64,000 bases of DNA, from IMG/VR virus record IMGVR_UViG_3300034105_003891, positions 2,593-66,592 of that record; one strand, written 5' to 3'. This DNA is from a virus. Below the pieces are notes generated by a model that was not told the DNA's origin, did not search any database, and saw only the letters and a program-made list of their open reading frames with translations. Made by a program: the position numbers and the translations under genes. Below are positions 40,431-52,398 of the stretch, piece after piece. How positions within the stretch are numbered: position 1 is the first letter of the stretch; the number at the start of each line of letters is the position of its first letter.

Positions 40431-40610
40431 ATGAAAAGGACATTATTCTTACTTGCAGTACTCTTCTCACTGAGTCTGTCATCATGCAAAAAAGTAGATG
40501 GTAAAACCACTACCGACGTAGCAGCTGATAGCACAGCGGTTGATACAACTAAAGTTGACACTACAACAGTAGACACAACATCAGTTAAAGTAGACACAAC
40601 AAAGGCATAA
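40431..40610 (+). CDS. Small lipoprotein with DT-rich repeats
   Basis: Lipobox LSSC, VDTT repeats. Confidence 0.7.
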   Translation: MKRTLFLLAVLFSLSLSSCKKVDGKTTTDVAADSTAVDTTKVDTTTVDTTSVKVDTTKA

Positions 40611-40733
40611 ATCCAAACAAGGTTTATATCGAAAGGGTCTAGTTTTACTAGACCCTTTTTTATTTATAAAAGATCCGAAAAGATTTTTTTTATTTGGAAT
40701 GTTTTCATATATTTGCAATGTAATTAAAAAAAA

Positions 40734-43472: not shown

Positions 43473-43482
43473 CAAAAATCGG

Positions 43483-43558
43483 AAATAATTTTTTTATTCG
43501 AAACATTTTCCTAAATTTGCATAAAATATTAAAATCAATTAGATATATAAATCTATAA
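43483..43558 (+). promoter_or_regulatory. Dual promoter block (TAAATTTG 43512, GATATATA 43542), duplicated at 52311-52387
   Basis: About 76 bp differing by one substitution and one T indel. Confidence 0.9.
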
Positions 43559-43571
43559 TTTAAAAAACACA

Positions 43572-43700
43572 ATGAAAACAACTTTCAGAAATACTGTCAA
43601 TCCGTTTATGCCGCAAAGCATTGCACCCTTTAACCAGGTGGGCACTGCCAAATGGTATAATGGGAAAGATAAAGGATCTGGAGGTCACAATATAATTTAA
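43572..43700 (+). CDS. Attenuator leader peptide 1 (42 aa)
   Basis: MKTTFRNTVNPFMPQSIAPFNQVGTAKWYNGKDKGSGGHNII; not in ORF track; 3' codons complementary to the terminator arm. Confidence 0.8.
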   Translation: MKTTFRNTVNPFMPQSIAPFNQVGTAKWYNGKDKGSGGHNII

Positions 43701-43736
43701 TGTAAAGCACTAGTCAAATAAGCATTAAATATTTTT

Positions 43737-43770
43737 ACTCCAGATCTTAAAAGATCTGGAGTTTTTTTTT
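43737..43770 (+). terminator. Attenuator terminator 1
   Basis: ACTCCAGATCT-TAAA-AGATCTGGAGT plus T-run, 13 nt before tRNA-Pro. Confidence 0.9.
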
Positions 43771-43783
43771 GGACTAGAATTAA

Positions 43784-43859
43784 CGGGGAGTGGACTAATT
43801 GGCTAAGTCGCCTGATTTGGATTCAGGACATCATCAGAGTTCGAGTCTCTGTTCCCCGA
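43784..43859 (+). tRNA. tRNA-Pro(TGG)
   Basis: Cloverleaf; loop TT-TGG-AT. Confidence 0.85.
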
Positions 43860-43875
43860 CAAATAAATAAATGAA

Positions 43876-44232: not shown

Positions 44233-44901
44233 ATGGCAAGAAAAGAAAAACAGTTTAATTATCTTTATAAGATAACAAACACAAAAAATGATAAATATTA
44301 CATAGGAATGCATTCAACAGATAATCTGAATGATGGTTATATGGGTGGAGGTAAAAGAATTAGAAATTCGATTAGAAAGCATGGAAAAGAGATACACGAA
44401 AAGGAAATATTAGAATTTCATGAATCGAGGGAGGAATTGGCTATAAGAGAGAAAGAGATTGTGAATATTGAATTAATTAAATTCGACCCATTATGTATGA
44501 ATCTCTGTGTAGGAGGTGAAGGAGGTCCAAGAGGTGGAGGTGATAAATTTAAGAGAGCAAACGAGGTTAATAAAACGGAGGAAGGGAATAGGAAAATACG
44601 AAAATCTATATCAATATCAATGAAGAAAAAATATGAGGACCCTATATACAGAGAAAAAGCAAACCTAATATTAAAAAATACAGGTGGATTTGGTTCACGA
44701 AAACACACCGACGAATCAAAGGAAATGATAGGGAAGACAAATTCGGTTTCCCAATCTGGCGAAAGAAATTCACAATTTGGGAAACTTTGGATAAAGAACG
44801 ATTTACTTATGTTAAACAAAAGGATAAATCCAGATGAGCTTGACTATTATATCAATGAGGGATTTTCAAAGGGCATGAATATGAAATATTTTAGAAAGTA
44901 A
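44233..44901 (+). CDS. GIY-YIG homing endonuclease (Seg-like, NUMOD3-like motif)
   Basis: YLYKITN...YYIG; KHTDESK..I. Confidence 0.85.
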   Translation: MARKEKQFNYLYKITNTKNDKYYIGMHSTDNLNDGYMGGGKRIRNSIRKHGKEIHEKEILEFHESREELAIREKEIVNIELIKFDPLCMNLCVGGEGGPRGGGDKFKRANEVNKTEEGNRKIRKSISISMKKKYEDPIYREKANLILKNTGGFGSRKHTDESKEMIGKTNSVSQSGERNSQFGKLWIKNDLLMLNKRINPDELDYYINEGFSKGMNMKYFRK

Positions 44902-45037: not shown

Positions 45038-45082
45038 TATATTTGCGATGTTAATAAAAAGGTTCTTTGACATAACGGAAAC
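45038..45082 (+). promoter_or_regulatory. Internal promoter plus boxA-like site
   Basis: TATATTTG 45038-45045; GTTCTTTGACAT 45062-45073. Confidence 0.65.
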
Positions 45083-45549: not shown

Positions 45550-46548
45550 ATGGTGAGAAATAAAAAAAGTTGCTTAAAATGCAATAAGGAGATAAGTTTA
45601 TCAAATTACACGAAACACGAAGAAACGTGCAAAGGTTCAAAAATTAAACTTAATTTGAATGACATAGTTAATGAAGCAGGTTTATGTATATGTCCGCATT
45701 GCCAAAAAGAATATAATATTAAAGGCATAGGGACGCATATATGGGCATCGCATGGGGATGGACTAAATACAAATCGAAAAAAAGGAAATGTTCCATGGAA
45801 TCACGGTCTAAATAAAAAAACTGATGAAAGAGTAGCCAGGCAAGCATTGATTTTATCAGAAGGATATAAAAACGGAAACATACACCCATCCTTCCTGGGT
45901 AAATCACACACGGAGCTAACAATCAATCAAATGAAAAAAAATCCAAAGTGTGGTGGAATAAGAAAGGGAAGCGGCAGGGGAAAAAGTGGATGGTATAGAG
46001 GCTATTATTGTGATAGCACATGGGAATTAGCATATGTTATATACAATATGGAAAATAAAATATATTTTGAAAGAAATACGAGAGGATTCCAATATATTTA
46101 CGAAAACGAAATACATTTATACTATCCAGATTTTATACAGCAAGACGGAAAATATGTTGAAATAAAGGGATACATGGATAGCAAAAACATAGAAAAAATA
46201 AAGGAATTTAGGAAAAATAATATACTTATTGTACTTGATGAAAAAGAAATTAGAAAATATTTAATTTACGCAAAAGAAAAATACGGTAAGGATCTATCCC
46301 TCCTCTATGATTCAGAGGAAATTAACAAAAAAGAAAAAACCAGGATGGAAATAATCAGAGATGAAAGAAAATCTATAATAAGGGAAAGCAATATAAATTT
46401 TAAAGAATATGGCTGGGGCAAAGAACTATCATTACTATTAAATATATCATCACAGAAATCAATAAAATGGGTAATTGATAATATGATGGATGAATTAAAC
46501 CCAAAATTATCACATATAAATAAAAAAGCGGGGGTAGCTCAGAGGTAG
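45550..46548 (+). CDS. Putative PD-(D/E)XK homing endonuclease with Zn fingers
   Basis: CxxC motifs, GKSHT, YYPDF...VEIKG; stop codon lies inside tRNA-Phe. Confidence 0.75.
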   Translation: MVRNKKSCLKCNKEISLSNYTKHEETCKGSKIKLNLNDIVNEAGLCICPHCQKEYNIKGIGTHIWASHGDGLNTNRKKGNVPWNHGLNKKTDERVARQALILSEGYKNGNIHPSFLGKSHTELTINQMKKNPKCGGIRKGSGRGKSGWYRGYYCDSTWELAYVIYNMENKIYFERNTRGFQYIYENEIHLYYPDFIQQDGKYVEIKGYMDSKNIEKIKEFRKNNILIVLDEKEIRKYLIYAKEKYGKDLSLLYDSEEINKKEKTRMEIIRDERKSIIRESNINFKEYGWGKELSLLLNISSQKSIKWVIDNMMDELNPKLSHINKKAGVAQR

Positions 46549-49641: not shown

Positions 49642-49734
49642 CGATTGGATGATATAGTGGCAGTATTAGGTCGGGGGTCTTACGTGAGTGAGTTGCCTCT
49701 GGTCCAGCACAGGTTCGATTCCTGTTTCAATCGC
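49642..49734 (+). ncRNA. tRNA-like RNA with elongated anticodon arm capped by GTGA
   Basis: CGATTGGA/TTCAATCG acceptor; ACAGG-TTCGATT-CCTGT T arm. Confidence 0.6.
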
Positions 49735-52303: not shown

Positions 52304-52310
52304 AAATCAA

Positions 52311-52387
52311 AAATAATTTTTTTTATTCGAAACATTTTCTTAAATTTGCATAAAATATTAAAATCAATTAGATATATAAATCTATAA
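52311..52387 (+). promoter_or_regulatory. Second copy of dual promoter block (TAAATTTG 52341, GATATATA 52371)
   Basis: Near-identical to 43483-43558. Confidence 0.9.
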
Positions 52388-52398
52388 AAATAAAAACG

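What the first reader, a model, noticed from the sequence alone, without database searches (positions are those of the whole stretch)
43572..43770. Attenuator 1 detail
Codons 9-34 (VNPFMPQSIAPFNQVGTAKWYNGKDK): 23 of 26 are amino acids served by block 1, including three Pro, two Gln and one Trp for the three proximal tRNAs, with varied synonymous codons (CCG, CCC, CAA, CAG, GGC, GGG). GATCTGGAG 43675-43683 pairs with terminator arm CTCCAGATC 43738-43746 (11 bp with flanking pairs). The inner stem ATTTAATG 43695-43702 / CATTAAAT 43723-43730 includes the stop.
Basis: seen in the sequence. Interest (0 to 1): 0.85.

Follow-up and report, generated by a model that had tools for sequence, protein, structure and literature searches.

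The report
Leader-peptide attenuator gating phage tRNAs
A giant lake phage places a tiny translated test gene, spelled almost only in the amino acids whose tRNA genes follow it, and a switchable transcription stop in front of a tRNA block, so it probably makes these tRNAs mainly when ribosomes read those codons slowly.

Summary
Observation confirmed. All coordinates are exact. The 42-codon ORF 43572-43700 is followed by an 11-bp terminator with a T9 run (43737-43770). tRNA-Pro starts 13 nt later, with no room for a promoter.

The terminator's 5' arm pairs with 43673-43683 in the ORF's last codons at -17.3 kcal/mol (0 of 3000 shuffles as good). That segment also pairs with codons 4-6. Nascent-RNA minimum-energy folds run 1:2, then 2:3, then 3:4.

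- **Conservation.** All three helices stay about 93% paired in 12 homologues. One lineage shows a three-way compensatory change.
- **Coding.** The ORF evolves as coding sequence, pN/pS 0.25-0.49.
- **Alphabet.** In 23 distinct leaders, 77 of 87 column states before the switch belong to the block-1 tRNA alphabet (P = 4e-8). The tail relaxes to background.
- **Promoter.** The same promoter cassette drives a second leader spelled in the other block's amino acids.

Best reading: a multivalent leader-peptide attenuator of tRNA genes, confidence about 0.7.

Caveats: there is no expression test, internal promoters exist, and the leader does not match each lineage's tRNA set exactly.

I found no published case. 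This scan has noted the same kind before on other phage DNA.

The parts
43476..43523 (+). Promoter half of a repeated cassette: a T run, CGAAA, and TAAATTTG (43512-43519), which is a Bacteroidota-type -7 box.
   Evidence: The cassette is near-identical at 43476-43559 and 52305-52388. There are 2 matches in the window and 0 of 100 shuffles with any. There are only 2 in the whole 66.6-kb contig. The -33/-7 consensus TTTG/TANNTTTG comes from passages of PMC6847099.
43524..43571 (+). Predicted 5' UTR, A/T-rich and without a Shine-Dalgarno sequence, with A at -3 and -6. The start site is inferred from the -7 box and is not mapped.
   Evidence: Sequence. The spacing rule (G at -5) and the A-3/A-6 determinants come from PMC6847099 passages. 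This part is inference.
43572..43700 (+). Leader ORF of 42 codons plus TAA: MKTTFRNTVNPFMPQSIAPFNQVGTAKWYNGKDKGSGGHNII.
   Evidence: ORF. pN/pS is 0.25-0.49 in 6 of 6 lineage pairs. It has no Pfam or PHROG family.
43581..43589 (+). Region 1 (codons 4-6), which pairs with region 2.
   Evidence: Seen in the MFE folds. This helix is paired in 92.6% of cells across 12 sequences, with 2 pairs changed on both sides.
43595..43671 (+). Conserved hairpin inside the coding region (codons 8-34, the codon-sensing stretch). It is also a possible RNA polymerase pause hairpin.
   Evidence: helices 2 and 3 are 90.5% and 93.9% paired. A pause function is inference only.
43673..43685 (+). Region 2 (codons 34-38). 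Bases 43677-85 pair with region 1, and bases 43673-83 pair with the terminator's 5' arm to form the antiterminator.
   Evidence: 0 of 3000 shuffles as good; 93.2% paired, with 3 pairs changed on both sides. The same bases are kept in another reading frame in L026.
43695..43730 (+). Inner A/T-rich stem-loop (43695-43703 with 43722-43730) that contains the stop codon.
   Evidence: helix 4 is 93.4% paired, with 3 pairs changed on both sides.
43737..43770 (+). Intrinsic terminator. Region 3 is 43737-43747, the loop is 43748-51, region 4 is 43752-43762, and the T9 run is 43762-43770.
   Evidence: 11 pairs, 5 of them G-C. One search gives -16.3 kcal/mol; helix 5 is 93.2% paired.
43784..43860 (+). 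tRNA-Pro(UGG), the first gated gene, 13 nt after the T run.

Best explanation
This is a ribosome-mediated (leader-peptide) transcription attenuator in front of a phage tRNA block.

**Proposed mechanism**
- A Bacteroidota-type promoter (-7 box at 43512) starts a transcript whose first 42 codons are translated.
- Codons 2 to about 32 are written almost only in the amino acids whose tRNA genes follow (Pro, Trp, Gln, Lys, Tyr, Asn, Phe, Gly, Met, Ala, Val, Arg, Ile), and many are codons rare in the phage.
- If the ribosome runs through to the TAA, it covers or abuts region 2 (43673-85), or region 2 re-pairs with region 1. The 11-bp/T9 terminator then forms and transcription stops 13 nt before tRNA-Pro.
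- If the ribosome stalls at any sensor codon because its tRNA is scarce, region 2 is free. It pairs with the terminator's 5' arm as soon as that arm emerges, and RNA polymerase reads on into the tRNA genes.
- The new tRNAs speed up leader translation and shut the gate again. This would be a feedback loop on tRNA supply.

**Shown here:** the anatomy, the competing helices and their conservation, coding-type evolution, and the restricted alphabet.

**Inferred:** translation, the sense of the switch, and the physiological signal.
For: 1. **No other route to the first tRNA.** The terminator is strong and lies 13 nt before tRNA-Pro. In three other lineages it lies 2-4 nt before tRNA-Phe. No promoter fits between, so the first tRNA needs read-through.
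2. **Antiterminator beyond chance.** It scores -17.3 kcal/mol with 0 of 3000 shuffles as good, while the control terminator has none. In 11 of 11 distinct close homologues the best upstream partner of the 5' arm is this same site.
3. **Order of folds.** Nascent-RNA MFE states run 1:2 (up to 43742), 2:3 (43744-43758), then 3:4 (from 43760). The same order appears in 4 of 4 lineages.
4. **Both exclusive structures are kept.** 1:2 is 92.6% paired, 2:3 is 93.2% and 3:4 is 93.2%, against 35-43% when partners are slid by 1-3 columns. L039 changed T:A:T to C:G:C in regions 2, 3 and 4 together. L028 replaced both arms and still has a 5+4-bp 2:3 helix. L026 keeps region 2 in a different reading frame.
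5. **Coding-type evolution.** Differences are in excess at third codon positions, and pN/pS is 0.25-0.49 in 6 of 6 pairs. All homologues are open for 40-45 codons.
6. **Alphabet.** Among 23 distinct leaders, 77 of 87 column-residue states before the switch lie in the block-1 set (P = 4e-8). No Leu, Glu, His or Cys occurs there. Four leaders have no outsider at all. The tail after WYNG is about 65% in-set, which is background.
7. **A second, complementary cassette.** The same promoter cassette occurs exactly twice per genome, each time before a tRNA block. The second leader is spelled in the other block's amino acids (Fisher P = 3e-4; a run of 16 such residues was not reached by any of 200,000 random windows of this phage's proteins). 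Its sequence differs in L026 and G006 while its composition is kept.
8. **Rare codons.** Sensor codons 9-31 are rare in the phage (P = 0.006).
9. **Precedent for sensing tRNA dose.** Loss of one tRNA-Phe gene derepresses pheA 6- to 7-fold (PMC3082878 passage).
Against: - **No direct test.** There is no expression or functional test, and the host is unknown. RNA-library contigs are low-depth and uninformative.
- **No codon runs.** No regulatory codon is repeated in a run. Trp and Tyr occur once each, so sensitivity per tRNA is uncertain.
- **Outsider residues.** 8 of the 42 window residues (4 Thr, 2 Ser, 1 Asp, 1 His) belong to the other block's alphabet; 6 of them (4 Thr, 1 Ser, 1 Asp) lie in codons 2-33.
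- **Imperfect tracking of tRNA content.** The G006 block has no Ile tRNA but its leader has 4 Ile codons. L026 block 1 has no Met tRNA. L039 shows no Ala, Met or Arg tRNA in the array downstream of its leader within the 18 kb held (its only Arg tRNA there lies upstream).
- **Internal promoters.** Promoters of the same type lie inside the block at 45038, 48667 and 50191. Strictly, the gate covers only Pro, Trp and Gln before other promoters add transcription.
- **One broken helix.** L022 has a C-A mismatch in 2:3 (-10.4 kcal/mol).
- **Incomplete masking at the stop codon.** Region 2 ends 12-17 nt before the stop, so a terminating ribosome only abuts it.
- **Uncertain default state.** Without a ribosome, the nascent fold prefers 2:3 over 1:2 by 6.7 kcal/mol, so the untranslated state is unclear.
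- **Conserved peptide core.** The order-conserved core QVGIAKWYNG could reflect a peptide function or an RNA function of its own.
Confidence: 0.72

Rival explanations
1. It is an ordinary small phage protein gene with its own terminator. The tRNAs behind it are made by constitutive leak-through or from other promoters, and the match between peptide composition and tRNA set is coincidence or shared ancestry.
For: - The peptide core PFMPQ..PF.QVGIAKWYNG keeps its order across lineages.
- Internal promoters exist in the block.
- The composition match in the window alone is modest (P = 0.01-0.015).
- The leader does not track lineage-specific tRNA losses.
Against: - It does not explain a terminator-arm complement that 0 of 3000 shuffles equal, nor its three-way covariation.
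- It does not explain why the alphabet restriction stops exactly where the RNA switch begins.
- It does not explain the second cassette with the complementary alphabet, whose peptide sequence turns over while its composition is kept.
- The peptide matches no known protein family.
Confidence: 0.1
2. It is an attenuator that senses general translation capacity or transcription-translation coupling, or that turns ON when the leader is translated. It is not specific for the tRNAs encoded downstream.
For: - The same three helices serve either logic.
- A ribosome at the stop codon only abuts region 2.
- With no ribosome, 2:3 is favoured by 6.7 kcal/mol in the nascent RNA.
- The sensor covers 13 amino acids, with several present only once.
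Against: A general sensor needs no restricted alphabet. Yet 77 of 87 states lie in the block-1 set, and Leu, Glu, His and Cys are absent. The sister leader uses the complementary set.
Confidence: 0.12
3. It is a non-coding small RNA of about 245 nt (promoter to terminator). The shared 5' end of the two cassette transcripts acts as a seed, and the ORF is incidental.
For: - The layout is promoter, a structured RNA (z = -5.2), then a terminator.
- The two cassettes share an identical 5' part.
Against: - Substitutions follow a coding pattern, with pN/pS 0.25-0.49 and an excess at third positions.
- The frame is open in all 23 distinct homologues.
- No Rfam family matches the region.
- This role is not exclusive. 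A terminated leader RNA could also act in trans.
Confidence: 0.04

Closest known systems
Multivalent leader-peptide attenuators of enterobacterial amino-acid operons (thr leader for Thr + Ile, ilvGMEDA leader for Ile/Leu/Val; also trpL, hisL, pheL). Named from established knowledge. The pheL mechanism was read in passages of PMC3082878.
   Same: A promoter-proximal short ORF, regulatory codons matched to what the operon supplies, 1:2 / 2:3 / 3:4 alternative helices, and an intrinsic terminator before the first gene. Such attenuators are known to respond to tRNA gene dose (the pheR case).
   Different: - The gated genes are tRNA genes, not biosynthetic enzymes or synthetases.
- The sensor is a 12- to 13-amino-acid alphabet spread over about 30 codons, with no codon runs.
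- The stop codon lies inside the antiterminator loop, downstream of region 2.
- The setting is a phage with Bacteroidota-type signals and no Shine-Dalgarno sequence.
- There is no sequence homology, and no Rfam leader family matches this region.
The silent long tRNA array (trn operon) of Anabaena sp. PCC 7120, induced under translational stress (PMC8421152, search listing and start of abstract only; PMC10272220, abstract).
   Same: An accessory tRNA array is kept off and switched on when translation is impaired.
   Different: According to the abstract, control there is by a ribbon-helix-helix protein repressor, TrcR, and not by a translated leader with a terminator switch. It is cellular, not viral.
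T-box riboswitches (recalled from established knowledge; mentioned in PMC2965389 passages).
   Same: A terminator/antiterminator decision that reports the state of a specific tRNA.
   Different: A T-box binds uncharged tRNA directly, needs no ORF, and controls synthetase or amino-acid genes. No T-box match was found here.

Membership tests
Leader-peptide (ribosome-mediated) transcription attenuator | A short ORF directly after the promoter that is translated. | tested here: inconclusive
   The ORF lies 48 nt after the predicted start site, with A at -3 and -6. pN/pS is 0.25-0.49 in 6 of 6 pairs, and the frame is open in 23 of 23 distinct homologues. Translation itself has not been observed.
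Leader-peptide (ribosome-mediated) transcription attenuator | Regulatory codons enriched for the amino acid(s) that the controlled genes serve. | tested here: met
   34 of 42 residues are in the set and all 13 set members are present (joint P = 6e-4). At family level, 77 of 87 states are in the set (P = 4e-8), and the tail relaxes to background. Exceptions are Thr and Ser codons, and lineage-specific tRNA losses that the leader does not track.
Leader-peptide (ribosome-mediated) transcription attenuator | An intrinsic terminator between the leader ORF and the first controlled gene. | tested here: met
   An 11-bp stem at -16.3 kcal/mol with a T9 run, 13 nt before tRNA-Pro. It is conserved in 12 of 12 aligned homologues.
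Leader-peptide (ribosome-mediated) transcription attenuator | An antiterminator that excludes the terminator and is placed so that ribosome position decides which one forms. | tested here: met
   2:3 scores -17.3 kcal/mol with 0 of 3000 shuffles as good. Region 2 sits in codons 34-38, 12-17 nt before the stop in four lineages. The helix is 93.2% paired, with 3 pairs changed on both sides. Whether a ribosome at the stop codon fully masks it cannot be decided in silico.
Leader-peptide (ribosome-mediated) transcription attenuator | A 1:2 (anti-antiterminator or pause) helix. | tested here: met
   43581-89 pairs with 43677-85 in the MFE. It is 92.6% paired with 2 compensated pairs and is present in the full-length MFE of 4 of 4 lineages. 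It is weaker than 2:3 by 6.7 kcal/mol.
Leader-peptide (ribosome-mediated) transcription attenuator | Read-through rises when the cognate charged tRNA is limiting. | not testable with these tools
   The only RNA data are low-depth metatranscriptome contigs. One ends at 43770 and one bridges 43617-43834. These are not informative.
T-box riboswitch | Stem I with a specifier loop and a conserved T-box sequence in the antiterminator. | tested here: not met
   An Rfam scan at E <= 1 gives no T-box match and no other match in 43572-43770.

The most novel reading that the evidence does not exclude
Giant phages of Bacteroidota-like hosts run a tRNA homeostat. Their tRNA genes are sorted into isotype blocks, and each block is gated by a leader whose codon alphabet equals the block's amino acids. 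Depletion or cleavage of particular host tRNAs, for example by host shut-off or by anticodon-nuclease defences, would then switch on exactly the matching phage tRNAs, and the new tRNAs would close the gate again. That would be leader-peptide attenuation used to sense tRNA supply rather than amino-acid supply, with a sensor for a dozen tRNAs at once.
Probability: 0.55. Interest if true: 0.9.

Novelty: new variant of a known kind. Interest (0 to 1): 0.8.

Why it matters
Ribosome-mediated attenuation is a textbook mechanism, but it is known for amino-acid biosynthesis and synthetase genes. Here the same logic appears to regulate tRNA genes themselves, with a leader that polls about 13 tRNA species at once.

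If true, several things follow:
- It explains how tRNA-rich jumbo phages time and dose their tRNAs.
- It gives a direct molecular read-out of which tRNAs become limiting during infection, which bears on the open question of why phages carry tRNAs (codon usage or counter-defence).
- It offers a compact, programmable sensor of tRNA availability.
- It extends leader-peptide attenuation to phages with Bacteroidota-type expression signals.

The prediction that the two gates respond to complementary sets of synthetase inhibitors makes the idea directly testable.

Tried and rejected
**Searches and checks that led nowhere or ruled something out**
- INPHARED phage records hold no close relative. Only homing-endonuclease and tRNA pieces match.
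- Rfam finds nothing in 43572-43770. A weak Phe_leader hit (30 bits against a gathering score of 55, E = 0.12) lies at the second attenuator, is below threshold, and is not used.
- The sigma-70 promoter scan is uninformative: 56 sites found against 52.7 expected.
- Equilibrium folding of the full transcript with a ribosome footprint at different codons nearly always gives the terminator. The antiterminator appears in 1 of 10 positions. A full-length MFE cannot decide a kinetic switch, so I used nascent-length folds instead.
- RNAduplex misses the bulged 2:3 helix of L028 and gives -7.2 kcal/mol to region 1. The nascent MFE shows the helix.
- L027/G007, a relative of L026, lacks leader and terminator. 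Half a promoter is fused directly to a tRNA-like gene. I read this as a deletion variant and it is not informative.
- RNA libraries: contigs of 4 of 4 chosen metatranscriptome runs touch relatives of the leader at depth 2-4. One ends at 43770, one ends at 43705, one at 43664 with a loose end, and one bridges into tRNA-Pro. Contigs cannot show ends or levels, and the runs were chosen for holding these words, so no conclusion is drawn.
- In one search one of the 23 leaders (the P0007 type, with DNWY) was not parsed by my KWY anchor in the per-sequence list. It is included in the column count.

**Literature.** Searches found no account of leader-peptide attenuation of tRNA genes, in phages or otherwise. 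'tRNA array' + phage + attenuator returned 0 papers. An older report, for example on E. coli tRNA-Phe gene leaders which I only dimly recall, could have been missed.

Full report
**Setting**

The window is 64 kb of a 66.6-kb virus contig with 36.6% G+C and holds 27 tRNA genes, all on the + strand. Close relatives are complete 430-kb phage genomes with terminal repeats. DNA runs that hold the stretch are mostly labelled lake-water metagenomes. Genes in the tRNA region are preceded by a T run, CGAAA and TAnnTTTG. That is the -7 consensus of Bacteroidota promoters, according to passages of PMC6847099. There is no Shine-Dalgarno sequence. ORFs between the tRNA genes are GIY-YIG or Seg-like homing endonucleases.

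**The observation**

- The ORF runs 43572-43700 and has 42 codons.
- GATCTGGAG lies at 43675-83 and CTCCAGATC at 43738-46.
- The inner stem is 43695-702 with 43723-30 and spans the TAA stop codon.
- The terminator is 43737-47 / 43752-62 with a T9 run to 43770 (11 pairs, 5 of them G-C; -16.3 kcal/mol).
- tRNA-Pro starts at 43784.
- Codons 9-34 hold 23 of 26 residues from the set of amino acids whose tRNA genes lie between this element and the next one (P W Q K Y N F G M A V R I).

By itself the 23-of-26 count is modest: P = 0.003, or 0.015 after correcting for the choice of window. For the whole leader, 34 of 42 residues are in the set and all 13 set members are present, joint P = 6e-4 against random windows of this phage's own proteins.

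**The RNA switch**

The region folds far better than shuffles (z = -5.2, 0 of 200 as good). The full-length MFE has four parts:
- codons 4-6 (43581-89) paired with 43677-85 (helix 1:2);
- a hairpin inside the ORF;
- the inner stem over the stop codon;
- the terminator.

The terminator's 5' arm has an 11-bp partner at 43673-83 (helix 2:3). It scores -17.3 kcal/mol against -7.1 +/- 1.7 in dinucleotide shuffles, and 0 of 3000 shuffles are as good. A control terminator at 40631 has no such partner (838 of 1000 shuffles as good).

Folding the nascent RNA at growing lengths shows three phases:
- Region 2 is held by region 1 up to 43742.
- The minimum-energy fold switches to 2:3 for ends 43744-43758 (-46.8 against -40.1 kcal/mol for a forced 1:2).
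- It switches to 1:2 plus terminator from 43760 (-56.9 against -52.7 kcal/mol for a forced 2:3).

This is the anatomy of a three-helix attenuator. No promoter fits in the 13 nt between the T run and tRNA-Pro, so that tRNA depends on read-through.

**Relatives**

The 42-nt core of the promoter cassette has exact matches in 6 viral loci. In each of four larger records it occurs exactly twice, each time before a tRNA block, and once in a 16-kb fragment. The reversed control pattern gives 0 matches. In this contig it also occurs exactly twice.

Leader homologues came from several searches:
- 9 protein clusters, all 42 aa long and 76-98% identical;
- 7 metagenome loci;
- 4 viral loci next to a neighbouring gene;
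- two further lineages, L028/G006 and L039;
- 8 representatives at E <= 1e-3 among 1.84 billion proteins, 7 of them new.

In 11 of 11 distinct close sequences, the best upstream partner of the terminator's 5' arm is the same site at ORF nt 111-113 of the ORF. Energies range from -10.4 kcal/mol (L022, which has a C-A mismatch) to -17.6 kcal/mol.

On a 12-sequence alignment, 1:2 is 92.6% paired, 2:3 is 93.2% and 3:4 is 93.2%. Two, three and one pairs respectively are changed on both sides. Sliding the partners by 1-3 columns gives 35-43% paired. Ten of the 12 sequences are close relatives and the structure was derived from the window, so the percentages are inflated. The compensated pairs come from the distant lineages.

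Those distant lineages are the telling cases:
- **L039** changed one position together in regions 2, 3 and 4, from T:A:T in the window to C:G:C.
- **L026** keeps AGATCTGGA although the reading frame over it has shifted, and its terminator carries an A-T to G-C change.
- **L028** replaced both terminator arms (CTCCGATTCT / AGAATCGGAG). Its region 2 (GAGAA..CCGGA) still forms a 5+4-bp helix with the new 5' arm in the nascent MFE.

The order of fold states (unpaired, 2:3, 3:4) and a closing 1:2 helix recur in 4 of 4 lineages. In the three lineages other than the window's, tRNA-Phe starts 2-4 nt after the T run.

**Is the ORF read?**

Between four lineages, differences pile up at third codon positions (for example 4, 4 and 14). 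pN/pS is 0.25-0.49 in 6 of 6 pairs. All 23 distinct homologues are open for 40-45 codons. The peptide matches no Pfam or PHROG family. Translation itself is not shown.

**The alphabet**

In 23 distinct leaders aligned from residue 2 to the conserved WYN(G), 77 of 87 distinct column-residue states belong to the block-1 set (background 0.62, P = 4e-8). In variable columns alone the figure is 66 of 76 (P = 2e-6). The ten outsider states are 5 Thr, 4 Ser and 1 Asp. Leu, Glu, His and Cys never occur, although Leu and Glu together make up 15% of the phage's proteins. Four leaders have no outsider at all. After WYNG, where the RNA switch begins, the in-set share falls to roughly 55-80%, near background.

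The partition cuts through codon boxes (Gln/His, Asn/Asp, Phe/Leu, Trp/Cys), so base composition cannot produce it. This last point is my inference from the genetic code.

Sensor codons 9-31 are rare codons in the phage (mean log RSCU -0.23, P = 0.006; GC3 0.52 against 0.27). RNA structure could also cause that.

**The sister element**

The second cassette (52305-52388) drives MSQIQYILDTLHLDHTSSTCESSIVMRREY plus a terminator (52515-43) before Ser, Ser, Thr, Cys, His, Leu, Ser, Met, Glu and Asp tRNA genes.
- 20 of 30 residues are in that set and all 8 set members are present.
- A run of 16 in-set residues was not reached by any of 200,000 random windows.
- A Fisher test of the two leaders against the two sets gives P = 3e-4.
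- L026 and G006 have second leaders with different sequences but the same composition: MKNLFHTGTSSSTSTTSCDEDNLRYTKG and MKQVQYTLSSLHLDTTSTSCELSLCVEKEKVLV.
- Its 2:3 complement is weak in my test (243 of 3000 shuffles as good).

These results support the general reading, but they concern another finding.

**Against the reading**

- There are no codon runs. Trp and Tyr occur once each.
- 8 of the 42 window residues are Thr, Ser, Asp or His.
- The leader does not follow lineage-specific tRNA content. G006's block shows no Ile tRNA, L026's block 1 shows no Met tRNA, and L039's array downstream of its leader shows no Ala, Met or Arg tRNA within 18 kb, yet the codons remain.
- Promoters of the same type lie inside the block at 45038, 48667 and 50191. 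In this genome the gate strictly covers Pro, a 75-aa ORF, Trp, a GIY-YIG ORF and Gln before other promoters add transcription. The blocks are compact in G006 and L026.
- No + strand terminator-like site lies between 43770 and 51635.
- Region 2 ends 12-17 nt before the stop codon, so a terminating ribosome abuts it rather than covering it.
- Without a ribosome, 2:3 is thermodynamically preferred while the 3' arm is still unmade.
- RNA-library contigs give no usable evidence.

**Mechanism proposed**

Fast translation to the stop codon lets the terminator form. A stall at any sensor codon leaves region 2 free to take the terminator's 5' arm, and transcription enters the tRNA genes. Their products then relieve the stall. 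Leader-peptide attenuators are known to respond to tRNA dose: loss of one tRNA-Phe gene derepresses pheA 6- to 7-fold (PMC3082878, passage). Confidence that this is a ribosome-mediated attenuator of the tRNA block is about 0.7. The sense and the specificity of the switch are inferred.

**Comparison with what is known**

It works like the multivalent thr and ilvGMEDA leaders (named from established knowledge) but gates tRNA genes. It polls a dozen isotypes without runs and has its stop codon inside the antiterminator loop. It is not a T-box.

The nearest published case I found is the Anabaena trn tRNA array, which is induced under translational stress. By its abstract, a protein repressor, TrcR, controls it (PMC10272220; PMC8421152, listing only).

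Searches found no report of leader-peptide attenuation of tRNA genes. A 2010 survey of attenuators mentions none in the passages I read (PMC2965389).

Earlier notes of this scan describe the same kind of element in several other giant-phage contigs and at the second cassette of this one. I treat them as leads, not as evidence.

**Verdict**

This is a new variant of a known kind of control, and it is of high interest.

Noticed in passing
window 40708, 45038, 48667, 50191, 53778 (+ strand): Further promoters of the same build (T run, CGAAA-like element, TAnnTTTG) lie inside and before the tRNA blocks. None is followed by a leader ORF and terminator. The one at 40708 sits directly before tRNA-Arg(UCU).
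   Followed up: partly
window 44233-44901 and 45550-46548: Homing-endonuclease-type ORFs lie between the tRNA genes. One is GIY-YIG / SegE-like, and the other is a weak match to Phage_endo_I that falls below the family cut-off. In the relatives G006 and L026 the same tRNAs are packed tightly, so these ORFs look like insertions that broke up an older compact array.
   Followed up: partly
L039 14435-14507: A relative carries a tRNA with anticodon UUA, called 'tRNA-Stop' by ARAGORN, which would be an ochre-suppressor type. All leaders seen here end in TAA.
   Followed up: no
L027 8290-8400 (record G007): Half of the promoter cassette is fused directly to a tRNA-like gene with a 2-base 'anticodon' call. 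The leader and terminator are absent, apparently through deletion.
   Followed up: partly
window 49643-49733: Rfam gives a tRNA match of 33 bits (gathering score 29) that ARAGORN did not call. It may be a tRNA-like RNA with an unusual anticodon arm.
   Followed up: no
window 40433-40610: A small ORF has a lipoprotein-like signal peptide, a Cys, and a Thr/Val/Asp-rich repeat. It is followed by a strong terminator (40631-40659) that has no upstream complement.
   Followed up: partly
L026 16105-16190 and L038 7555-7640: A Ser(UGA)-like tRNA sequence lies directly after the second terminator, and ARAGORN did not call it. I read it by eye only.
   Followed up: no
window 43546-43561 and 52375-52390: The shared 5' UTR contains a small TAGAT/ATCTA hairpin (TAGATATATAAATCTA). 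The element GATATATAA is also kept in the diverged UTRs of L026 and G006. Its function is unknown.
   Followed up: no
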